64,000 nucleotides of DNA from an uncultured Caulobacteraceae bacterium. Lineage in GTDB: Bacteria > Pseudomonadota > Alphaproteobacteria > Caulobacterales > Aquidulcibacteraceae. This document shows, piece by piece, positions 7,645 to 15,805 of this stretch. Each line of letters opens with the position of its first letter. The stretch's first letter is position 1. The notes under the pieces are model-generated. The model saw only the letters and a program-made list of their open reading frames with translations. It searched no databases and was not told the DNA's origin. The stretch covers positions 5,905 through 69,904 of the forward strand of contig CADEDT010000004.1 of NCBI GenBank assembly GCA_902826145.1. Direction: 5' to 3'. The position numbers and the translations under genes are program-made.

Positions 7645-8364
7645 ATGTCAGAAAATGGTTGGAGCGAGTCCGCGTCCGCTTGGATCGCGGATATGGGAGA
7701 ACACGGCGATTTCGGCCGCCGCTATGTGCTTGATCCCATCATGCTGCCGCGGGCATTGGCGACCGCGCCGAAGACAGCGCTAGATGTTGGTTGCGGCGAA
7801 GGCCGATTCTGCAGGATGCTCGGCACCGAGGGCATTGCCAGCACCGGCATCGACCCGACACGCGTATTGCTTGAGCGTGCTCGCGAGCTTGATCCGGGCG
7901 GAATCTACTTAGAGGCAAGCGGCGATGCATTGCCTGTGGGCGATGCAAGCTTCGACCTCGTCGTCAGCTACCTTAGCTTGATCGATATGCCAGAGATCCG
8001 CGCGCCGATCGCGGAGATAGCGCGTGTGCTGAAGCCTGGCGGCACGCTGCTGATCGCCAATTGCAATGGCTTCAACACGGCCGGAGCGGAGACGGGTTGG
8101 GTGCGCGGGATGACTGGCGCGCACTTGCACTATCCGGTCGACAACTATCTCGAAGAGCGGGGCTTCTGGACCGAGCGGCGCGGCATTCGCATCGTCAATC
8201 ACCATCGACCTCTCAGCGCGTACATGCGTGAATTGTTGCGCCACGGGCTGGAGCTTCGATTCTTCGATGAGCCGGCGCCAGTTGCAAACGCTCCTAATCC
8301 GAAGGCAGAGCGTTATCGTCGCGCGCCTTGGTTCGTGGTGATGGAGTGGCGCAAGCCCGCCTAG
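7645..8364 (+). CDS. Class I SAM-dependent methyltransferase
   Basis: LDVGCGEGR motif I, GIDP, SFDLVV, RVLKPGG. Confidence 0.88.
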   Translation: MSENGWSESASAWIADMGEHGDFGRRYVLDPIMLPRALATAPKTALDVGCGEGRFCRMLGTEGIASTGIDPTRVLLERARELDPGGIYLEASGDALPVGDASFDLVVSYLSLIDMPEIRAPIAEIARVLKPGGTLLIANCNGFNTAGAETGWVRGMTGAHLHYPVDNYLEERGFWTERRGIRIVNHHRPLSAYMRELLRHGLELRFFDEPAPVANAPNPKAERYRRAPWFVVMEWRKPA

Positions 8365-8963
8365 CCGCCAGCGGCGCGCGCGAGGCCGCCGAGGGTTACG
8401 TTCACAGCCATATCAGCCAGCTCTTCGGCGCTCACGGCGCCGGTCGGTTTATACCAGGTGTGCGTCCAATTGATCATACCGAAAAAGAGCATCGCGGCAG
8501 CGAGCGCTTCGCCGGGACGCTTGTTCAGATCCGGCGCGATCTCCAGAAGCAGCTTACGCAAGTTCTCGATCAGTCCGCGCTGCACCGCGACGATTTCCGC
8601 GCGCTTGGACTTCGGCAAACGGCCAAGATCGTTCAGCAGCACTTTGTGCCGATCGGCGGCGCCGACATAGAGCGCCATGAAGAGCTGTGCCAACTCGCGC
8701 AGCTTCTGCTTGGGGCCCTCAGTTCCGGCCATTGCATCAGCTGCGGCGGCCTCCAGCGCGCGGACGTGGCTGATCATGACATCATAGAGAATGTCCTCTT
8801 TGGACTCGTAATAGTGATAGACGAGCGACTTGGACGTCTTACATCGCTCGGCGATGTCGGCCACGGACGCGCCATTGAAGCCGTCAGCCGCGAAGAGCGC
8901 GGCGGCCGCCTCAACGATCGCCTGCTTTCGCTCATCGTAATCCGCTGCCTGCGTACGCGCCAT
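8361..8963 (-). CDS. TetR-family regulator, probable PaaR
   Basis: N-terminal TetR HTH (GFNGASVADIAERCKTSKSLVYHYYESKEDIL), FGMINW.HTWY C-terminus; adjacent to paa operon. Confidence 0.88.
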   Translation of the reverse strand: MARTQAADYDERKQAIVEAAAALFAADGFNGASVADIAERCKTSKSLVYHYYESKEDILYDVMISHVRALEAAAADAMAGTEGPKQKLRELAQLFMALYVGAADRHKVLLNDLGRLPKSKRAEIVAVQRGLIENLRKLLLEIAPDLNKRPGEALAAAMLFFGMINWTHTWYKPTGAVSAEELADMAVNVTLGGLARAAGG

Positions 8964-9020
8964 TTGTCCCTCGCCGGCAAGACTACAGGCGATGCGGGCG
9001 CCGGCGCTAGACCGGTTGCA

Positions 9021-9920
9021 TCAAGCGGCGCGCTGTGCGGTGCCGGCGGGAGACGCGGGCACGAAGAGTGCGAAGGCGCCGTGGGCCGCAAAGTCGGTGA
9101 GGATCGGCGCGAGCGCCAGATCGCCGGGCATTTCATCACCTCGCTTGCCCAGCATGGTGAGGCTAATCTCACACGACTCGCCGTCGCGAAGCACGCGCTC
9201 GATCATCTCGGCCACGTCACGGCGCTGGCCGGCGGAGACCAAGTCAATCACCCGGTGGCCAACCACGTCAGCGGCTGCGAAGCCGGACCAAGCAGCGAAA
9301 GTTGTGTCGATACTCTCAATACGTGCTCGGGCGTCCAACTTGATAGCGGCTGCGCGTGGATGACGCCGCACGGCTTGCTGCATGGCCTCGCCTTCTTCCA
9401 GGCGCTGACGCAAAACGCGCAGTTCGGTCGTATTGCGCAGTAGCACTCCCGCGCCGACCGACACGGGAAAAACAGTTACTGCGAAGTGACGATTGTCCTG
9501 TGCACCGACTTCGAAACGCTCCGCTTGGCGTGTTCGCATCACGCGCTGGACGCGGTCGGCGAGGATGGAGGCCAGAGGCTGCGGCAGGGCTTGCAAGATG
9601 GCCGCGCCTTCGAGGTCGCCCCGGGACAGACCGCTGATAGCCTGAGCTACAGAGTTGCTGTGACGGACACAGAGCGCAGCGTCCACGGACAAGTAGCCGT
9701 CTTCCAAATTCTCCTGAACCGCAGCCACATCGGCCCGCAGCTTGGCGAGCCCGTGCGACGAGTCCTCTGCTGAAGAGGTTGAAAGGACATCGGGCGCGCT
9801 GAGCACAAGGCGCTCGCGTCCGTGATGCGTGATCGAGACTGGCTGTCGTAACGCCTCGTTCTGCCAGTATCCGATGTTACGGATGAACTCAGCAGATGAC
9901 ACGCTGATGCGGTTTGGCAT
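9021..9920 (-). CDS. Phd/YefM antitoxin-like N-terminal domain fused to two PAS domains
   Basis: SVSSAEFIRNIGYWQNEALRQPVSITHHGRERLVL matches the Phd/YefM pattern; two PAS-like segments follow (NSVAQAISGLSRGDLEGAAILQAL; FAAWSGFAAADVVGHRVIDLV). Confidence 0.75.
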   Translation of the reverse strand: MPNRISVSSAEFIRNIGYWQNEALRQPVSITHHGRERLVLSAPDVLSTSSAEDSSHGLAKLRADVAAVQENLEDGYLSVDAALCVRHSNSVAQAISGLSRGDLEGAAILQALPQPLASILADRVQRVMRTRQAERFEVGAQDNRHFAVTVFPVSVGAGVLLRNTTELRVLRQRLEEGEAMQQAVRRHPRAAAIKLDARARIESIDTTFAAWSGFAAADVVGHRVIDLVSAGQRRDVAEMIERVLRDGESCEISLTMLGKRGDEMPGDLALAPILTDFAAHGAFALFVPASPAGTAQRAA

Positions 9921-10158
9921 GAACCCTCCGAATCAAGTTCTGCGAATAACACTGACATCACAGAAAACGCCTTACAACCTGCGCGGGCACGCCGTTCGGC
10001 ACGTTTTTGGCGTCGTTCGTCGTGTCGTATTCCCTTAGCGTTAGGCGAGATAACACGCATCTTTCTGCAGTTTTTGAAACATTCGAAAAATTCAACACGG
10101 CGAGATCGCAAGTCCTTTTTGCGAGGCTTTCACTCCAGAGATCAAGGAGCGCGAAGCC

Positions 10159-10620
10159 ATGGGGTTCTCGCTTAAGTTGTCCAAAAGATTCCGAGCATTC
10201 AGGCTTGTACGTCTGGATCGCGCGGTCCGCTCGAAGGCCGGGGGCGCGGCGGTAGAGTTTGCGATTGTGGGCCCCGTGTTGCTCCTTCTGATGACGGGCA
10301 TTTTCACGTATGGCGGGTACTTTCTTACCGCACATACGGTCCAGCAGCTAGCGAATGACGCCGCGCGCGCCTCGATTGCGGGGCTAGACGATGAAGAGCG
10401 GCTCGCATTGGCGCGCGAGGCCATGGAAGCGGGCATCTCTGGCCAGCGCTTCATGCGCGGCGAGGTCTCACAGGTCGCCCTCTCGCATGAAGGAACGACC
10501 ATCTCAGTTTCCGTTACGTATGACGCCAGCGACGATGTGTACTGGACGTTCGAGTCCTTGATCCCAGCGCCACCGCCAGTGATTTCCCGCCGCTCCACCA
10601 TCCGCTTGGGCGGCTACTGA
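10159..10620 (+). CDS. tadE: TadE-like pseudopilin
   Basis: GGAAVEFAIVGPVLLLLMTGIF prepilin-type motif; LANDAARA. Confidence 0.88.
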   Translation: MGFSLKLSKRFRAFRLVRLDRAVRSKAGGAAVEFAIVGPVLLLLMTGIFTYGGYFLTAHTVQQLANDAARASIAGLDDEERLALAREAMEAGISGQRFMRGEVSQVALSHEGTTISVSVTYDASDDVYWTFESLIPAPPPVISRRSTIRLGGY

Positions 10621-12269
10621 TGCTCTGCCACCCCTTCCTACGCGCGCGCGACGGCGGAATTTCGGTGATTACGGCCGTAAGCTTCGTGGTGCTGATTGGC
10701 TTTGCCGGCTTGGCCGTCGATGTCGGTAGCGTCTACCTGGAATCCCGCCGCCTACAGGGCAGCGCCGACCTTGCCGCGCTCGCGGCGATGCAGAACCCGG
10801 CGCAAGCGGAAGCGCTCGCCACCGCCACCGTCGCCGCCAACCGGTGGCCGCTCGACACACGCGTCCGTGTCGTGCGCGGAACCTATGCGCCGGATCGTTC
10901 CGTTCGGCCCGGCGAGCGCTTCCGCCCTAGCTCTGCCGCACCGAATGCGGTGCGCGTCGAACTCACCACGAGTGCGCCACTGTACTTCGGACGTCTCTTC
11001 ATACCGAGCGGGCGTATGCAGATTCGGCGTCAAGCAACGGCCGCCGAAACGCAGATGGCGAGCTTCCAGATCGGCACACGGCTGCTGTCGCTGCAAGGCG
11101 GTGTCGCCAACCAAGTGATGAGCGGACTGACAGGCAGCAACGTCAACCTGTCCGTCATGGACTACAATTCGCTCCTGCGCGCCGATGTCGACGTGCTCGA
11201 CTACGTCGAAGCGTTGCAAACGCGGCTCGATCTTGAAGCGGCAAGCTTCGACGAGACGCTGGACGCCGAGGCGGAGGCGCCGGAAGCGCTGGCCGCGCTG
11301 GCGGACGTCGTGGCGCAGACAGACGAAAGGGCCGAGCGCGCGCTGCGCGCCATGGCGCGCGCCTCAGAGCGCAGCGGACCGTTGCGGGGGCTAAGTAACG
11401 TCTTAGATCTCGGCCCGTATGGCGCTCAAGATCACGCAACGAGGAGCGCCGACACCGGCATCAAAGTCAGCGCCATGGATCTGGCGACCGCCATCCTGCA
11501 GGTCGCTAACGGCGATCGGCAGGTTCAGCTCGATTTAGGCGGAGGCGTGCCGGGGCTGGCATCGACCAACGTTTGGCTGGCGATTGGCGAACGACCGAAC
11601 AACTCACCCTGGCTCACTGTCACGAGCGATGAAGACGTCATCATTCGCACCGCGCAAACGCGGCTTTATGTTGAAGCCAACGCCGGCGCCGGAGCGTTGA
11701 CGAATGTGCGGGTGCCTATTCTCGTTGAACTCGCTTCCGGGCAAGCCCGCCTCGAGGACATTGCCTGCGGTTGGGGCGGCGGCGGCAATCGCGCCGTGAC
11801 GCTCGGCGTGTCGCCTGGGATCGGCTCGTTGATGCTGGGAGAAATCGATCGCGGACGGCTCAACAATTTTCGCACCAACCTCACTCCCTCACCGGCTCAG
11901 CTGGTTCGCGTAGGGTTAGCCCGCGTCGAAGGCGAATCTCGCATCGATGTTGGTGGCCAGACTTGGAGCAACGTGCGCTTCAGCGGCAGCGATATTGATC
12001 GCGGCGTCGTGAAGTCGGTGCAAACACGCGACGCGGCGCGCGCCACTGTCTCAAGTTTACTTGGGCAGACGCAACTAACGGTGCGCGCAGGCGGGATCGG
12101 CCTCAACACCGGCGCACTAACTTCGAGTGTGAAAGGTGTGCTCACGGCGGCAGCGGCGCCGCTTGATAGTCTTTTGAATGGGTTGTCGGACCTCCTCGGT
12201 GTGCGCCTAGGGGAGGCCGACGTTCGGGTGAACGGCGTGCGCTGCGGCGGCGCTGCATTGGTGGCGTGA
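10620..12269 (+). CDS. tadG: TadG-like Flp-pilus pseudopilin/anchor protein (Tad + DUF2134-like)
   Basis: RDGGISVITA...GLAVDVG...LQGSADLAALAA; NAVRVELTTSAPLYFGRLF; TGATG overlap with tadE. Confidence 0.8.
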   Translation: MLCHPFLRARDGGISVITAVSFVVLIGFAGLAVDVGSVYLESRRLQGSADLAALAAMQNPAQAEALATATVAANRWPLDTRVRVVRGTYAPDRSVRPGERFRPSSAAPNAVRVELTTSAPLYFGRLFIPSGRMQIRRQATAAETQMASFQIGTRLLSLQGGVANQVMSGLTGSNVNLSVMDYNSLLRADVDVLDYVEALQTRLDLEAASFDETLDAEAEAPEALAALADVVAQTDERAERALRAMARASERSGPLRGLSNVLDLGPYGAQDHATRSADTGIKVSAMDLATAILQVANGDRQVQLDLGGGVPGLASTNVWLAIGERPNNSPWLTVTSDEDVIIRTAQTRLYVEANAGAGALTNVRVPILVELASGQARLEDIACGWGGGGNRAVTLGVSPGIGSLMLGEIDRGRLNNFRTNLTPSPAQLVRVGLARVEGESRIDVGGQTWSNVRFSGSDIDRGVVKSVQTRDAARATVSSLLGQTQLTVRAGGIGLNTGALTSSVKGVLTAAAAPLDSLLNGLSDLLGVRLGEADVRVNGVRCGGAALVA

Positions 12270-12380
12270 TGTCGAGTGCAAGACGACGGACCAAAGCGGC
12301 GTACGCCGTTCACATCCCTATGCCTTCAGGCATAGGCCGCCCTCTACCTCGCGCGGTAGAGCGCCAAGCAGAAGCTCAAC

Positions 12381-12395
12381 TTAAGCGCTTTTTAG
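12381..12395 (+). promoter_or_regulatory. CtrA-like box upstream of the csu major pilin gene
   Basis: TTAA-GCGCTTT-TTAG, one mismatch to TTAA-N7-TTAA, about 45 nt before ATG 12440. Confidence 0.35.
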
Positions 12396-12439
12396 CCGGC
12401 AGGGGCGCAAAAGCCTCGCAACAACAAATTGGTGTGGTG

Positions 12440-12934
12440 ATGTTTCGTTCTCTTCTTTCTTTGACGCTGGCAGGTGCAATGCTCGTACCCTCCGCTGCGT
12501 TCGCGGCGGGCAGCGATACGGATTCCCTTGAGGTTACCGCGACCGTGCTGGCTTCCTGCGAAGTCAACGCAACCGATCTTATTTTCGGCAATTATGATCC
12601 GGTCGCGGCGACGCACGTCGAAGCGCAGACGTCGCTGAGCGTTACGTGCACAAACGGCACGCCCTATCACGTCGGCCTCAGCCTCGGTGACGGCTCGGGC
12701 GCGTCGATGGCGAACCGCCGCATGACCAAGGACGGCGGTTCGCAAACGCTGAACTACGTTCTCTATAAGGACAACCAGCACTCGGTTCTCTGGGGCAACA
12801 GCGGCACGGATCGCGTGTCGGCCACTGGCGACGGCACTTCGGACACGATCGACGTGTTCGGCCGCATTCCGATGCAGCAGGCCGCTCCCGCAGGCGACTA
12901 TTCCGACACCGTCGTCGTAACCGTGTCGTGGTGA
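12440..12934 (+). CDS. Csu-type (spore coat U domain) major fimbrial subunit
   Basis: Signal peptide; VTATVLASC...LIFGNYD...VTCT.GT.Y.VGL..G; LNYVLYKD...WG; PAGDYSDTVVVTVSW. Confidence 0.9.
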   Translation: MFRSLLSLTLAGAMLVPSAAFAAGSDTDSLEVTATVLASCEVNATDLIFGNYDPVAATHVEAQTSLSVTCTNGTPYHVGLSLGDGSGASMANRRMTKDGGSQTLNYVLYKDNQHSVLWGNSGTDRVSATGDGTSDTIDVFGRIPMQQAAPAGDYSDTVVVTVSW

Positions 12935-13608
12935 GTCCGCGCGCCCTCCTCCTGGCGTTGGCCCTGCTGGCCTCGCCATCCGCGGCGGGCGCGCAAACCG
13001 GCGGCATCCAAGTGGCGCCCGTGCTCGTCAACATGAGCGCGGAACGCAACATCAGCTCCGTTCGTGTGCGTAACGGACGTGACCGCCCGGTCTCATTCGA
13101 AGTTGACGCATTCGTGTGGACACAGACGAACGGCCGCGACGTCCTTACGCCAACACGCGATCTTCTGGTTGCGCCCGGCGTGTTCGAGGTTGCCGCGAAC
13201 GCAGAGCAGGTTGTCCGGCTTGGCGCCCGGGCGTCTGGTGAGACGGAGCGCGCGTACCGCATCGTCATGCGCGAGCTTCCTAGCGACAGACACAACGGAA
13301 TGGCGCTCGGCTTTACTTTGGAAATGTCGCTCCCCGTCTTCGTCAGCCCCGCGCGTGCTCGCGCGAATGTCGATGCACAGCCGACGGCAACTGGCCTCAT
13401 TCTCTCAAACACTGGCGCGGGCTACGCGCAGATTGCGCTGCTGGATGGCGGTGAGTATCTGAACGCGCCGCGTTATCTCTTGGCGGGCGCATCCGCTGAA
13501 ATTCCCCTGCCGGCGCATGCGAACGCGATTCGGCTCCGTGCTGCCGATTCCGGCGGCGAGCTGAGCGAGCGCACGATCCATGTCGGCCCGGGCGCTTCTT
13601 TGCATTAG
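12931..13608 (+). CDS. PapD/CsuC-like periplasmic fimbrial chaperone
   Basis: Signal peptide; IQVAPV, LLVAPGVF, QVVR, ERAYRIVMRELP, MSLPVFV. Confidence 0.88.
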   Translation: MSPRALLLALALLASPSAAGAQTGGIQVAPVLVNMSAERNISSVRVRNGRDRPVSFEVDAFVWTQTNGRDVLTPTRDLLVAPGVFEVAANAEQVVRLGARASGETERAYRIVMRELPSDRHNGMALGFTLEMSLPVFVSPARARANVDAQPTATGLILSNTGAGYAQIALLDGGEYLNAPRYLLAGASAEIPLPAHANAIRLRAADSGGELSERTIHVGPGASLH

Positions 13609-15805
13609 CCTGCTCTTCGCAACGCCCGCCGCCGCGCAAGATGCGGCGTCGCCGTTTGTGACGCAGCTGCGGCTGCCTGCGCGTGGCGTAACGCGCGACG
13701 TGTTCGCGTGGCGCGACGATGCGGGCCGTGTCTCGGTCGAAGCGAGCGCGCTTGCATCGTTCGGTATCACAGTGCCGGACGGCGACGCGCAGGTGCTTCT
13801 CTCAAGTATTCCGGGGCTTCAGTACGAGGAACGCGCGGCAGCCGGGGCTATCGTGATCACCTGCACGTCGGCGTGCTATGAGCAGCAGCGCGTGGACCTG
13901 ACGCCGGATGCTCAGCAGGCTGAAATCGTTTCGGCGACGGGCGGCTACCTCAACTATGAGGCCGAAGCGAATTGGGTCGATAGCGATGGCGCGAGCATTG
14001 GCGGCATCGCCGAAGCCGCGTTCTTCGGGCGCTGGGGTTTGATTGAAAGCTCCTTCGTCGGCCAAGCCGACAATGAAACGTCACGGCTCACGCGCTTGGA
14101 AACAAGCTGGACGATCGACCGTCCACGTGAAGGCGTGCGCATCCGCCTTGGTGACGCTGCGTTCGCAAGCGCCGGCGGGGCGCCAGTGCGATTTGCCGGC
14201 ATCCAGCTTGGACGCCATTTCGCACTGACGCCGTCGCTGATCACCTACCCTACGCCCGCGCTGACTGGCGAAGCGGAAACGGCATCTACCGTTGAACTCT
14301 ATGTCGACGGCGCGCTGCGCGCTCGCGGTGAAGTGGCTGCTGGGCCGTTCGTGATTGATCACGCACCAGTCGTGAGTGGCGGCGGCCAGGCGGAGCTGGT
14401 GGTCACGGACATCTTGGGCCGGCAGCAGACCATCACGCGCCCGTTCTTTGTCGACACCGACATGCTGCGCAAAGGGCTGAGCGACTGGTCGGTTTCGGCC
14501 GGTGCGGAGCGGCGCGAGTTCGGGAGGAAGAACGGCGACTATGGCGCGGGCTTCATCGCGGCGCGCTATCGCCGCGGCATAACCGACGCACTCACGCTCG
14601 AAGGCGCAATCGAGCACGCGGAGGACACAACGACGTTTCAAGCCGGCGCCGGCATCGCAACGATCTATTCCGGCCACGTCTATATCTCCCGATCGCAGAA
14701 CGAGACGGGCGGCTACACGACGGCGTCGTGGCTCTACGACGCGCGTGTTTGGTCAGCTGGCATTCAGTTCGACCAACGGGACCGCGAGTTTCAAGCGCTC
14801 GGCCAAAAGGGCGACAATGACTTCGAGACGGGTGTTGCGGCGAACGTCTCCCTGAATCTTGGTGACTTCGGCGGTGTCGCGTTCACAGCGGCGCAAGTGA
14901 ACTATGAGGACGAGGAGGATGCCCGCACGCTCTCGCTCTCCTACTCGCCGGACTTCGGTGGCGGCGCGATTTCCTTTCGTCTCTTGCACACTGACCGCGA
15001 GGACAGCGAACTGGCAGCGGGTGTTAGCATCAGCTTTGAGCTCGGCGATGATGCATCCGGCAACGCAAGCCTGGAGTCCGATCGCCGGGGTCAAACATAT
15101 AGGCTGAGCGCGCAACGCGCGGTCACACCGGAGCGGCTGGGTTGGCGCGCACGTGTTTCCGCCGGTGCGCAAGATCGCGTGGACGTCGCCGCGCTCGCCC
15201 GTACAGGACTTGGCGACAGCATGGTGCAGATCGCCTATGCGGACGGTGACACCGGTCTGCGCGTTCGTCACGGCGGCAGCATTGGCTGGATCGAGAGCAT
15301 GCCGTTTGCGGGGCGGACCATCGAGGGCGCGTTTGCACTCGTGGATGCTGGCGCACCGGGCGTCACGGTGACGCGCAACAGGCTAAGCGCGGGTGTGACT
15401 GGCGCCGACGGCCGATTGCTGGCGACGAGCCTGCGCCCCTACGACGACAACACGATCGCCATCTCAGAGGACGATCTGCCTTTCGACCGCGCGCTCACAA
15501 CGCCCGTTCGCAGCATTACACCGGCGCAGGGCGCCGGCGTCGTGGTTCGCTTCTCGGACGCGGCTCAGCATCTGATCGAAACGAGTGTGCGCTTCAGCAA
15601 CGGCAACACACCTGCGCGCGGCGCGGTGTTGCTCCGCGACCGCGATGGCGGGCGCTTCCCGATCGGAAGCGATGGACGCGTGGTGCTGAGCGGTGCGGCT
15701 ATTGGTGATGTCGTGCGCTTGGAAAGCAGCTTGAACTGCAGCGCGGTGGCGAACGAAGACGCTGCGCGCGACGGTTTGCAGCTTGTGTGCGCGGTGGCGT
15801 CATGA
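13580..15805 (+). CDS. CsuD-like outer-membrane fimbrial usher
   Basis: GGYLNY, RLETSW, RIRLGD, RFAGIQLGRHFAL.P, STVELYVDG, GPFVI, G.TLEG; 741 aa. Confidence 0.9.
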   Translation: MSARALLCISLLFATPAAAQDAASPFVTQLRLPARGVTRDVFAWRDDAGRVSVEASALASFGITVPDGDAQVLLSSIPGLQYEERAAAGAIVITCTSACYEQQRVDLTPDAQQAEIVSATGGYLNYEAEANWVDSDGASIGGIAEAAFFGRWGLIESSFVGQADNETSRLTRLETSWTIDRPREGVRIRLGDAAFASAGGAPVRFAGIQLGRHFALTPSLITYPTPALTGEAETASTVELYVDGALRARGEVAAGPFVIDHAPVVSGGGQAELVVTDILGRQQTITRPFFVDTDMLRKGLSDWSVSAGAERREFGRKNGDYGAGFIAARYRRGITDALTLEGAIEHAEDTTTFQAGAGIATIYSGHVYISRSQNETGGYTTASWLYDARVWSAGIQFDQRDREFQALGQKGDNDFETGVAANVSLNLGDFGGVAFTAAQVNYEDEEDARTLSLSYSPDFGGGAISFRLLHTDREDSELAAGVSISFELGDDASGNASLESDRRGQTYRLSAQRAVTPERLGWRARVSAGAQDRVDVAALARTGLGDSMVQIAYADGDTGLRVRHGGSIGWIESMPFAGRTIEGAFALVDAGAPGVTVTRNRLSAGVTGADGRLLATSLRPYDDNTIAISEDDLPFDRALTTPVRSITPAQGAGVVVRFSDAAQHLIETSVRFSNGNTPARGAVLLRDRDGGRFPIGSDGRVVLSGAAIGDVVRLESSLNCSAVANEDAARDGLQLVCAVAS

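What the first reader, a model, noticed from the sequence alone, without database searches (positions are those of the whole stretch)
9021..9920. Antitoxin-fold (Phd/YefM) DNA-binding domain fused to tandem PAS sensors, with no toxin
Seen: the first ~45 aa fit Phd/YefM, the rest is two PAS-like domains; there is no kinase/GGDEF output and no adjacent toxin gene. It is divergent from tadE-tadG-csu and 57 nt upstream of, and co-oriented with, the PaaR-like TetR. The 238-bp intergenic region has inverted repeats (TTTTTGAA-ACA-TTCGAAAA at 10071-10089; TCGCAA-N7-TTGCGA at 10106-10124). Inference: an antitoxin domain exapted as a one-component regulator that may link aromatic-acid or redox sensing to pilus expression.
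Basis: partly seen in the sequence, partly recalled or inferred. Interest (0 to 1): 0.7.

Follow-up and report, generated by a model that had tools for sequence, protein, structure and literature searches.

The report
Antitoxin-fold DNA binder fused to PAS sensors
A toxin-less protein joins the DNA-binding half of a Phd/YefM antitoxin to two PAS sensor domains, usually sits back-to-back with pilus genes in several alphaproteobacterial lineages, and faces a conserved array of short DNA palindromes, so it is probably an uncharacterised signal-sensing switch for surface-adhesion genes.

Summary
ORF 9021-9920(-) encodes a 299-aa protein with two Pfam-significant PAS domains, no enzymatic output domain and no toxin neighbour.

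Its first ~42 residues model as a Phd/YefM fold. Foldseek top hits are almost all Phd/YefM antitoxin N-domains (TM 0.7-0.8). The window protein itself misses Pfam PF02604 (12.7 bits against a cut-off of 29.8). Caulobacter orthologues pass it (33.4 bits), as do 34 of 71 family representatives at E<=1e-3.

The family (~300 aa) occurs in Terricaulis-like bacteria, Caulobacter, Phenylobacterium and Sphingomonas. Public annotation calls members 'prevent-host-death antitoxin' or 'PAS protein'. I found no paper on it. This scan noted the same architecture on other genomes (e1-5257830, e1-5180898).

The conserved partner is tadE-tadG(-csu), divergent in 24 of 34 loci. The TetR/paa genes are neighbours in one clade only.

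New here: the intergenic region carries 3-4 palindromic hexamers T(T/A)CG(A/T)A at a 9-bp period, usually starting 50-62 nt from the tadE ATG. This is far above shuffles.

Best reading (about 0.6): a one-component regulator of the pilus operon in which PAS domains replace the toxin as allosteric effector. DNA binding, signal and sign of regulation are untested.

The parts
9021..9920 (-). Gene for the 299-aa Phd/YefM-fold + PAS-PAS protein (stop codon 9021-9023)
   Evidence: ORF list and sequence. Pfam and NCBIfam domains. Full-length AlphaFold model, pLDDT 86.7. About 150 full-length homologues at 45-74% identity.
9795..9920 (-). Residues 1-42: Phd/YefM-fold putative DNA-binding and dimerisation domain (strand 5-8, helices 9-14 and 16-23/25, strands 28-32 and 35-40)
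   Evidence: AlphaFold models. Foldseek PDB hits are almost all Phd/YefM N-domains. It is the most conserved part of the protein: 0.88 against 0.63 for the PAS domains in A1, and 0.65 against about 0.40 in 71 diverse representatives. R14, W19 and Q20 are invariant in all 71.
9417..9731 (-). Residues 64-168: PAS-A
   Evidence: PF08448 E=5e-15 and PF00989 E=2e-13. Model pLDDT above 90. Structure hits to tandem-PAS proteins DosP, PpsR, FixL and bHLH-PAS.
9057..9350 (-). Residues 191-288: PAS-B
   Evidence: PF13426 E=4e-7 and TIGR00229 E=6e-12. Model.
9024..9056 (-). Residues 289-299: disordered tail ending ...QRAA
   Evidence: pLDDT 42. The terminal dipeptide is AA in 84 of 117 close-clade homologues although the tail is otherwise variable.
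9921..10158 (.). 238-bp divergent intergenic region between the regulator gene and tadE
   Evidence: Alignment of 15 orthologous regions shows two conserved blocks.
10064..10096 (.). Operator-like array of four hexamers at a 9-bp period: TCTGCA (10064), TTTGAA (10073), TTCGAA (10082), TTCAAC (10091).
   Evidence: Register printed. The period-9 array is conserved in 21 loci: mean score 17.0 of 24, against 11.85+-0.23 in shuffles and 12.2-13.4 at other periods. TTCGAA occurs in 13 of 22 regions against 1.2 expected. Spacing of 9 bp occurs 13 times against 0.39 expected, and 18 bp 8 times against 0.37. Of the eight period-9 arrays at this score in the 3.6-Mb assembly, this is the only one with an A+T-rich, non-coding look; the coding status of the other seven was judged from their sequence only.
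10106..10124 (.). Perfect inverted repeat TCGCAA-N7-TTGCGA. Present here but not conserved as a repeat in relatives.
   Evidence: Only the TTG..ATCT part is conserved.
9927..9946 (.). Two further CG-centred hexamers (TCCGAA 9927, TGCGAA 9941) and a GANTC site (9930-9934) just upstream of the regulator's ribosome-binding site. Possible autoregulatory site.
   Evidence: Conserved block GTTCGa...TTGAnTCGGAG in the alignment. GANTC lies 9-17 nt (mostly 14-17) before the ATG in 10 of 21 loci, against 2.1+-1.3 in shuffles.
10159..12269 (+). tadE-like (10159-10620) and tadG-like (10620-12269) genes, the conserved divergent partners and presumed target
   Evidence: PF07811 E=5.5e-14; PF13400 and PF09977. 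Synteny.
12266..15805 (+). Csu-type chaperone-usher genes (SCPU pilin, PapD-like chaperone, usher) downstream of tadG. They belong to the module in the Terricaulis-like clade only.
   Evidence: PF05229 E=5.5e-38, PF00345 E=6e-14, PF00577 E=4e-31. Present in most Terricaulis-like loci and absent from the Caulobacter and Sphingomonas loci.
8361..8963 (-). TetR-family regulator 57 nt downstream and co-oriented. A clade-specific neighbour that belongs with the paa genes.
   Evidence: PF00440 and PF17932. It follows the gene in the window plus 10 loci only. No terminator-like site was found between the two genes.

Best explanation
The gene encodes a cytoplasmic one-component transcription regulator.

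Shown in silico: residues 1-42 form the dimeric DNA-binding fold of Phd/YefM antitoxins. The antitoxin's toxin-binding tail has been replaced by a flexible linker, a long helix and two PAS domains. There is no cognate toxin.

Inferred mechanism:
- Dimers of the N-domain read CG-centred palindromic hexamers T(T/A)CG(A/T)A. This parallels a YefM dimer, which reads one TGTACA hexamer with its antiparallel helix-turn-helix and its strand 2-strand 3 loop.
- Three or four such hexamers sit at a 9-bp period in the shared promoter region, usually 50-62 nt from the tadE start codon (window 10064-10096).
- PAS-PAS contacts could assemble several dimers on this array.
- A still unknown signal sensed by the PAS domains would change the geometry of the N-domains, as toxin binding does in YefM-YoeB. 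That would switch transcription of tadE-tadG (plus the csu chaperone-usher genes in this clade), and probably of the regulator gene itself.

Repression is somewhat more likely than activation, because all characterised Phd/YefM-fold DNA binders are repressors. The transcription start is not known.
For: Fold
- The N-domain model has pLDDT 87. Nearly all top Foldseek PDB hits are Phd/YefM antitoxin N-domains, including DNA-bound Phd (4zm2) and YefM (6l8e).

Homology
- A Caulobacter orthologue with the same architecture and neighbourhood passes the Pfam PF02604 gathering score (33.4 against 29.8 bits).
- 34 of 71 diverse family representatives hit PF02604 at E<=1e-3.
- An 84-aa protein that passes the PF02604 gathering score (48.5 bits), and so looks like a canonical antitoxin, is 68% identical over the core.

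The N-domain as the functional core
- It is the most conserved region.
- The positions that contact DNA in YefM are Tyr6, Ser7, Arg10, Gln11 and the strand 2-strand 3 loop (PMC7544224). Through the alignments they map onto invariant or near-invariant S9, A10, I13, R14 and T31-R37.

Neighbourhood
- The gene is divergent to tadE-tadG in 24 of 34 loci, down to 30% identity (Sphingomonas fennica).
- In the sampled Caulobacter genus, 9 genomes have both the regulator and a close TadG. The other 11 showed no full-length regulator and no TadG match at the thresholds used.

Operator
- The period-9 hexamer array is strongly enriched and positionally conserved.
- A Caulobacter locus has TACGTA-N3-TACGTA-N3-TACGGC in the same place.
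- Unlinked tadE genes lack the array. Several regulator genes that are not next to tadE keep a period-9 CG-hexamer array upstream (L008 16 of 18, L024b 15 of 18, L050 CGGA x3).
- YefM operators are likewise paired palindromic hexamers (PMC1802561).
Against:
- The window protein itself does not reach Pfam significance for PF02604. Profile searches of the N-domain against PDB sequences give only E~0.5-1.4 to Phd.
- The window's own array is degenerate: one perfect hexamer, then 5 of 6, 4 of 6 and 3 of 6.
- The 9-bp period is shorter than YefM's 12 bp, so how many dimers fit is unclear.
- The loci are phylogenetically related, so the enrichment statistics overstate independence.
- The Sphingomonas locus shows no such array (score 11 of 24). 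Three unlinked regulator genes (L034, L037, L036) show at most weak ones.
- A scan for the Caulobacter RpoD promoter consensus is no better than shuffles (8.95 against 9.08+-0.15). The position of the array relative to the promoter is therefore unknown.
- No cofactor-binding residue (LOV Cys, haem His) is conserved, so the signal is unknown.
Confidence: 0.6

Rival explanations
1. The hexamer array is the binding site of a different factor, such as a global or cell-cycle regulator of Caulobacterales. The Phd-PAS protein acts elsewhere or through other DNA.
For: Nothing here links protein and array physically. GANTC (CcrM) sites recur near the regulator's start, which hints at cell-cycle inputs. 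The Sphingomonas orthologue has the same neighbours but no array.
Against: The array was found in the divergent regulator-tadE regions and upstream of some regulator genes that are not next to tadE. It was absent upstream of all 12 unlinked tadE genes examined, 4 of them in genomes that carry the regulator elsewhere and 8 in genomes without it. In this genome it is the only such array with an A+T-rich, non-coding look, which does not suggest a global regulon. Palindromic hexamers fit the way YefM dimers read DNA (PMC7544224, PMC1802561).
Confidence: 0.15
2. The N-domain no longer binds DNA. It serves only as a dimerisation or protein-interaction module, and the protein is a PAS signalling adaptor, for example controlling a partner protein or being controlled by proteolysis.
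For: The Phd/YefM N-domain is also the dimer interface. A conserved C-terminal AA in an otherwise variable disordered tail suggests regulated proteolysis. No output domain is present.
Against: The highest conservation falls on the positions that contact DNA in YefM, including an invariant Arg in the helix-turn-helix and the basic THHGRER hairpin. The conserved divergent gene arrangement with a conserved palindrome array is typical of DNA-binding regulators.
Confidence: 0.12
3. It regulates, or is regulated with, the TetR/paa aromatic-acid genes.
For: The TetR gene lies 57 nt downstream and is co-oriented, with no terminator-like site between. paaABCDE lie just beyond it.
Against: This adjacency exists only in the window plus 10 closely related loci. 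More distant orthologues keep tadE-tadG but have unrelated downstream genes.
Confidence: 0.07
4. It is a bona fide antitoxin whose toxin is encoded elsewhere or has recently decayed.
For: NCBI annotates Caulobacter members as 'type II toxin-antitoxin system prevent-host-death family antitoxin'.
Against: The toxin-binding C-terminal segment is absent and replaced by PAS domains. No toxin-sized ORF is adjacent in the window, and no toxin gene turned up among the neighbours in the loci inspected, which were compared with the window's neighbouring proteins and, for a few, scanned against Pfam. The architecture is stable at about 300 aa across at least 70 clusters at 50% identity. No other PF02604 gene was found in this 92%-complete genome.
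Confidence: 0.03

Closest known systems
YefM (E. coli, S. aureus) and Phd (phage P1) type II antitoxins, Pfam PF02604
   Same: The N-terminal strand-helix-helix-strand-strand fold is shared (TM 0.7-0.8). Homology is detectable through orthologues. The positions that contact DNA in YefM are conserved within the family. The candidate operator consists of short palindromic hexamers repeated side by side, like the paired TGTACA boxes of yefM-yoeB (PMC1802561, PMC7544224).
   Different: There is no toxin gene and no toxin-binding tail. The tail is replaced by two PAS domains. The base-reading pair is I13-R14 rather than R10-Q11. The hexamer is T(T/A)CG(A/T)A rather than TGTACA. The period is 9 bp rather than 12 bp, with 3-4 copies. 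The presumed target is a divergent pilus operon rather than a toxin-antitoxin operon. The window protein is below the Pfam cut-off.
PpsR/CrtJ (Rhodobacter): PAS-domain repressor of photosynthesis genes
   Same: It is a one-component, PAS-only sensor coupled directly to a DNA-binding domain. Tandem PAS domains are joined by long helices (structure hit 4hh2, E~4e-12; weak TIGR02040 hit E=0.0018). It binds repeated palindromes in target promoters (established knowledge).
   Different: PpsR has three PAS domains and a C-terminal helix-turn-helix. Here the DNA-binding domain is N-terminal and of the Phd/YefM fold. The score is far below the PpsR family cut-off (17 against 275 bits).
Eukaryotic bHLH-PAS factors (AHR-ARNT, HIF-2a-ARNT)
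   Same: The layout is the same: a small N-terminal dimeric DNA-binding domain followed by PAS-A and PAS-B. Structure hits cover the PAS-PAS part (8xs8, 4zp4 and others).
   Different: This is an analogy only. The DNA-binding fold is unrelated, sequence identity is 6-8%, and the lineage is different.
Other toxin-less Phd/YefM-head fusions noted by this scan (Phd-PAS-histidine kinase e1-4688807; Phd-winged helix e1-941928; Phd-PAS-PAS e1-5257830 and e1-5180898)
   Same: The principle is the same: the antitoxin DNA-binding head is re-used in front of another module, with no toxin. e1-5257830 describes the same architecture beside adhesion genes.
   Different: Those are AI notes on other genomes. 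e1-5257830 states that the family is confined to one bacterial family. Here it is found in at least two families of Caulobacterales and in Sphingomonas. The period-9 hexamer array is described here.

Membership tests
Phd/YefM antitoxin family (PF02604): DNA-binding domain | N-terminal strand1-helix1-helix2-strand2-strand3 fold | tested here: met
   AlphaFold models. Nearly all top Foldseek PDB hits are Phd/YefM N-domains, with TM 0.62-0.80 and rmsd 1.3-3.9 A.
Phd/YefM antitoxin family (PF02604): DNA-binding domain | Sequence match to the Pfam profile above the gathering score (29.8 bits) | tested here: inconclusive
   Window protein: 12.7 bits, E=0.11 on the N-terminus alone, and no hit on the whole protein. 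Orthologues: Caulobacter L033 33.4 bits. 34 of 71 family representatives hit at E<=1e-3, best 4.9e-10.
Type II toxin-antitoxin system (Phd-Doc, YefM-YoeB) | C-terminal toxin-neutralising segment after helix 3 | tested here: not met
   After strand 3 come a low-confidence linker (44-52) and PAS-A.
Type II toxin-antitoxin system (Phd-Doc, YefM-YoeB) | Adjacent, co-transcribed cognate toxin gene | tested here: not met
   The neighbours are a TetR gene and tadE. There is no conserved small ORF. The same holds in the relatives' loci inspected.
Type II toxin-antitoxin system (Phd-Doc, YefM-YoeB) | Binds palindromic operator(s) in its own promoter | not testable with these tools
   A conserved array of palindromic hexamers lies in the shared promoter region. 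Binding was not measured.
PAS-domain one-component transcription regulators | PAS sensor domain(s) in the same polypeptide as a DNA-binding domain, with no phosphotransfer domain | tested here: met
   Two PAS domains above the Pfam cut-offs. No HisKA, HATPase, receiver, GGDEF or EAL domain.
PAS-domain one-component transcription regulators | Sequence-specific DNA binding and signal-dependent control of a target promoter | not testable with these tools
   Inferred from synteny and from the operator-like array.
PpsR/CrtJ (TIGR02040) | Equivalog score of at least 275 bits and a C-terminal helix-turn-helix | tested here: not met
   17.4 bits. There is no C-terminal helix-turn-helix.

The most novel reading that the evidence does not exclude
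This is a family of antitoxin-derived sensor switches. The PAS tandem has taken over the toxin's role as the allosteric effector of a Phd/YefM DNA-binding dimer. Several dimers would assemble on a 9-bp-period array of CG-centred palindromic hexamers, turning accessory Tad pseudopilin and Csu-type adhesion genes on or off in response to an unknown small molecule or redox cue. In the Terricaulis-like clade the protein's level would also be set by ClpXP-type proteolysis through a C-terminal AA degron, echoing antitoxin lability.
Probability: 0.35. Interest if true: 0.65.

Novelty: new variant of a known kind. Interest (0 to 1): 0.5.

Why it matters
Phd/YefM domains are known almost only as antitoxin heads that repress their own toxin-antitoxin operons. 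This would be a clear case of that fold recruited as the DNA-binding module of an ordinary signal-sensing transcription factor.

The case comes with a predicted operator and a predicted target, which are surface-adhesion genes. It also offers a structural analogy that can be tested directly: a PAS sensor standing in for the toxin as allosteric co-regulator.

Practically, members are currently mis-annotated as 'type II antitoxins', which inflates toxin-antitoxin counts in Caulobacter and its relatives. Culturable carriers exist (Terricaulis silvestris, Caulobacter flavus, C. radicis, C. endophyticus), so the idea is easy to test.

The value is tempered by two facts. The domain combination is already visible in public annotation, and this scan has noted it before on other genomes.

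Tried and rejected
1. Profile searches of the N-domain against PDB sequences. The top hits were spurious summed repeats (designed 'Pizza' beta-propellers). Phd came only at E~0.5-1.4, so this gave no useful sequence evidence. The structure search was decisive instead.
2. E. coli-type sigma-70 promoter scan of 8900-10250: no hits.
3. Caulobacter RpoD consensus (TTGaCgS-N10-14-GCtANAWC, PMC8144410) across 21 intergenic regions: no better than shuffles (8.95 against 9.08+-0.15). I therefore make no claim about where the array sits relative to -35/-10. One candidate in the window is TCGAAAA-N10-GCGAGATC.
4. Covariation between recognition residues and hexamers. Caulobacter proteins read (V/I)SRNFG against FIRNIG here, but their arrays are TACGTA in L032/L033 and TTCGAA-like in L035. 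There is no clean code.
5. Genome-wide scan for further arrays in the window's genome. The other seven period-9 hits look like coding sequence (Phe-Glu/Asp codon periodicity), though I did not annotate them. No extra regulon emerged.
6. Neighbours of regulator copies that are not next to tadE (L034, L037, L050): a MiaB-like radical SAM gene, a TPR gene and genes with no Pfam hit. Uninformative.
7. Literature searches found no description of the family.
9. PAS cofactor. No conserved Cys (LOV) and no His on the F-alpha helix (haem) appear among the invariant columns. The ligand is left open.
Full report
**1. What is there**

The minus-strand ORF 9021-9920 encodes 299 residues. It starts at an ATG preceded by GGAGG.

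Pfam and NCBIfam find two PAS domains and nothing else:
- PAS_4, E=5e-15, and PAS, E=2e-13, over residues ~64-168.
- PAS_9, E=4e-7, and TIGR00229, E=6e-12, over residues ~193-277.

There is no kinase, receiver, GGDEF/EAL or helix-turn-helix domain. The protein ends 11 residues after PAS-B.

- TetR gene: 57 nt downstream and co-oriented (TetR_N plus TetR_C_24).
- Divergent genes: 238 bp away lie tadE (PF07811) and tadG (PF13400/PF09977), followed by SCPU, PapD-like and usher genes.
- Toxin: no toxin-sized ORF is adjacent.
- Inverted repeats: both are present. 10071-10089 matches 7 of 8 positions and 10106-10124 is perfect.

**2. Is the N-terminus really Phd/YefM?**

By sequence the window protein is marginal.
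- PF02604 scores E=0.11 (12.7 bits, cut-off 29.8) when the first 64 residues are scanned alone.
- Profiles of the N-domain reach Phd in the PDB only at E~0.5-1.4.

Structure and transitive homology settle the question.
- Full-length model: an AlphaFold model built from 22 homologues (pLDDT 86.7) gives strand 5-8, helices 9-14 and 16-25, then strands 28-32 and 35-40. A low-confidence linker (44-52), a long helix (51-70) and two PAS domains follow.
- N-domain model: a model of residues 1-55 alone has pLDDT 87.
- Foldseek: that model retrieves almost only Phd/YefM antitoxin N-domains. Hits include YefM 2a6q, Phd 3hs2/4zlx, Phd-operator 4zm2, YefM-YoeB-DNA 6l8e, M. tuberculosis YefM and RelB-type antitoxins. 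They give TM 0.62-0.80, rmsd 1.3-3.9 A and probability 0.97-1.0. The E-values are only 0.01-0.3 because the domain is short.
- Orthologue: a Caulobacter orthologue has the same length, architecture and neighbours (L033:9785-10681, 36% identical). It passes the Pfam gathering score (33.4 bits, E=3.9e-8).
- Family representatives: 34 of 71 hit PF02604 at E<=1e-3.
- Short relative: an 84-aa protein (L030) is 68% identical over the core ITHHGRERLVL region and scores 48.5 bits, above the gathering score.

So the fold claim is confirmed. The protein is not a toxin-antitoxin component, because the toxin-binding tail and the toxin are both absent.

**3. The family**

About 150 full-length relatives at 45-74% identity come from Terricaulis, 'Hyphomonadaceae' and Caulobacterales metagenome-assembled genomes, and from Terricaulis silvestris.

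A profile of the N-domain searched against 1.84 billion representatives finds 1352 proteins at E<=1e-3. Among the best 150, about half are 280-350 aa Phd-PAS-PAS proteins. The rest are mostly 50-130 aa proteins of antitoxin size.

A second search seeded with the Caulobacter orthologue names these carriers:
- Caulobacter sp. BK020, C. radicis, C. flavus and C. endophyticus.
- Phenylobacterium spp.

Their public labels are 'type II toxin-antitoxin system prevent-host-death family antitoxin', 'prevent-host-death family protein' or 'PAS domain-containing protein'. Their precomputed Pfam annotation is PF02604 plus PAS. Sphingomonas fennica has a 30%-identical member.

Distribution is patchy. In a 301-genome sample of the order, full-length matches occur in 6 of the window's genus (the window's own genome included, plus 5 of 23 others), in three sister genera, and in 9 of 20 genomes of the Caulobacter genus.

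The N-domain is the most conserved part of the protein. Mean column conservation is 0.88 against 0.63 for the PAS domains among close relatives, and 0.65 against 0.39-0.42 among 71 diverse representatives. R14, W19 and Q20 are invariant in all 71.

I found no paper describing the family. This scan had noted the same architecture on other genomes (e1-5257830, e1-5180898).
- My data agree with e1-5257830 that the gene sits by adhesion genes.
- My data do not agree that the family is confined to one bacterial family.

**4. The conserved partner is tadE-tadG, not TetR/paa**

I compared the window's neighbouring proteins with every locus by tblastn.
- The regulator gene is divergent to tadE-tadG, 200-270 bp away, in 24 of 34 loci. 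These include Caulobacter (31-36% identity) and Sphingomonas (30%).
- Four more loci have only csu-type genes on that side.
- Six copies lie elsewhere. Three of these are second copies in genomes that also have a linked copy.
- The TetR gene follows the regulator only in the window plus 10 closely related loci. Elsewhere the downstream genes differ.
- In the Caulobacter genus sample, the nine genomes with the regulator are exactly the nine with a TadG orthologue at E<=1e-20 (48-51% identity). The other eleven showed no full-length regulator and no TadG match at that threshold. Related genomes are not independent observations.

The window's genome has Flp pilin genes on two other contigs (C107 and C38), with tadE-like genes beside the one on C107. 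The tadE-tadG pair beside the regulator therefore looks like an accessory set.

**5. An operator-like array**

An alignment of 15 orthologous intergenic regions shows a conserved block near tadE with consensus CGAATTnTTCGAAnTnTTCGAAAAATnCGAATT.

Quantitatively:
- The best run of four TTCGAA-like hexamers at a 9-bp period scores on average 17.0 of 24 in 21 loci. Other periods (7-13 bp) score 12.2-13.4, and shuffles score 11.85+-0.23.
- The array starts 50-62 nt from the tadE ATG in most loci.
- An unbiased 6-mer count puts ATTCGA and TTCGAA on top. TTCGAA occurs in 13 of 22 regions against 1.2 expected.
- Distances between T[TA]CG[AT]A-like sites peak sharply at 9 bp (13 against 0.39 expected) and at 18 bp (8 against 0.37).

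In the window the array is TCTGCA-gtt-TTTGAA-aca-TTCGAA-aaa-TTCAAC at 10064-10096. The second inverted repeat is not conserved.

Other loci behave as follows.
- Caulobacter L032/L033 carry TACGTA-aaa-TACGTA-ttt-TACGGC in the same place. This is the same 9-bp period with a related CG-centred palindrome.
- None of 12 tadE genes that are not next to a regulator gene has such an array. Four are in genomes that carry the regulator elsewhere and eight are in genomes without it.
- Several regulator genes that are not next to tadE keep one upstream: L008 16 of 18, L024b 15 of 18, L050 three CGGA hexamers. Others show only weak traces, and Sphingomonas shows none.
- In the window's 3.6-Mb assembly, of the eight period-9 arrays at this score, this is the only one with an A+T-rich, non-coding look. 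I judged the coding status of the other seven from their sequence only.

The array therefore travels with the regulator gene rather than with tadE.

**6. Why this fits a Phd/YefM head**

In the S. aureus YefM-YoeB-DNA structure, each YefM dimer inserts its antiparallel helix 1-turn-helix 2 into one major groove. It reads one palindromic TGTACA box through Arg10 and Gln11, with Tyr6 and Ser7 touching the flanking thymines. The strand 2-strand 3 loop contacts the minor groove (PMC7544224). E. coli yefM-yoeB has two such hexamers 12 bp apart (PMC1802561).

Through the alignments, the positions correspond as follows.

| YefM position | Window position | Conservation in the family |
|---|---|---|
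| Tyr6, Ser7 | S9, A10 | near-invariant among close relatives; A10 also in the wider family, where S9 is Ala or Ser |
| Arg10, Gln11 | I13, R14 | R14 invariant in all 71; I13 invariant among close relatives, Val or Ile in the wider family |
| strand 2-strand 3 loop | T31-H-H-G-R-E-R37 | invariant or nearly so among close relatives; E36 varies in the wider family |

The family thus keeps the DNA-reading positions but with a different residue code, which matches its different hexamer. An Arg reading the G of a central CG step is plausible. That last point is inference.

**7. Proposed mechanism and its limits**

Shown:
- The fold, the architecture and the absence of a toxin.
- The synteny with tadE-tadG.
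- The conserved hexamer array.

Inferred:
- The protein binds the array as dimers, which PAS-PAS contacts hold together.
- The PAS tandem takes the place of the toxin as the allosteric input. In YefM, toxin binding changes the crossing angle of helix 3 and moves the DNA-binding domains by ~10 A (PMC7544224). Here helix 3 is replaced by a linker plus the N-cap helix of PAS-A.
- The output is control of tadE-tadG(-csu) and probably of the regulator's own gene. CG-centred hexamers at 9927 and 9941 lie just upstream of its ribosome-binding site.

Not known:
- The sign of regulation.
- The transcription start. Promoter scans were uninformative.
- The signal. No LOV cysteine or haem histidine is conserved.
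- How dimers fit a 9-bp spacing.

**8. Verdict**

The protein is not an antitoxin. It works like a PAS one-component regulator whose DNA-binding module is of the Phd/YefM type. I rate that as a new variant of a known kind. It is uncharacterised experimentally, but it is already visible (and mislabelled) in public annotation and was already noticed by this scan.

Interest is 0.5. Confidence in the regulator-of-tadE reading is about 0.6.

Noticed in passing
window 9024-9029 (last two codons, Ala-Ala): The disordered C-terminal tail is variable, yet it ends in Ala-Ala in 84 of 117 close-clade homologues (QRAA and QQAA are commonest). Only 24 of 118 Caulobacter/Phenylobacterium members end this way. 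This looks like a ClpXP-type degron, and antitoxins such as Phd are themselves protease substrates (recalled, not tested).
   Followed up: partly
window 9930-9934, and the same position in relatives: A GANTC (CcrM methylation) site lies 9-17 nt (mostly 14-17) upstream of the regulator's ATG in 10 of 21 loci, with N = T, G or A. Shuffles give 2.1+-1.3. This may indicate a cell-cycle or methylation input.
   Followed up: partly
P0122, P0124, P0171: These 250-345 aa proteins consist of four tandem Phd/YefM-like N-domains (...FRANFGRY...IITNF..., repeated four times). I did not know this architecture. Their source organisms are not given.
   Followed up: no
L031:6794-7267 (Rhodospirillales MAG): The same ITHHGRERLV-type Phd head is fused to a nucleotidyltransferase domain (PF01909 E=6e-12; PF02604 E=2e-5). 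It may be a Phd-MntA-like hybrid antitoxin.
   Followed up: partly
L024:8830-9693 and 10001-10897: One Terricaulis MAG carries two tandem paralogues of the Phd-PAS-PAS gene (36% and 40% identical to the window protein) next to a csu cluster. The second copy has a TTCGGA/TTCGAA/TTCGGG period-9 array upstream.
   Followed up: partly
G000:C266:1-1476: A second tadG copy, 83% identical to the window's, sits on a short contig of the same assembly. It is either a paralogue or a co-assembled related strain in this 270-contig MAG.
   Followed up: no
window 7645-8364: A 239-aa gene with no domain assignment here (I labelled it a methyltransferase without testing) lies between paaE and the TetR gene. 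It is conserved in that position in six relatives: L007, L010, L011, L014, L015 and L001, the last being the window's own region.
   Followed up: no
G249 (L036) versus its C1:67882-69516: In one genome of the same genus, the regulator is divergent to the csu genes directly, while tadE-tadG lie on another contig without an array. The module can therefore be split, and the regulator stays with the csu genes.
   Followed up: partly
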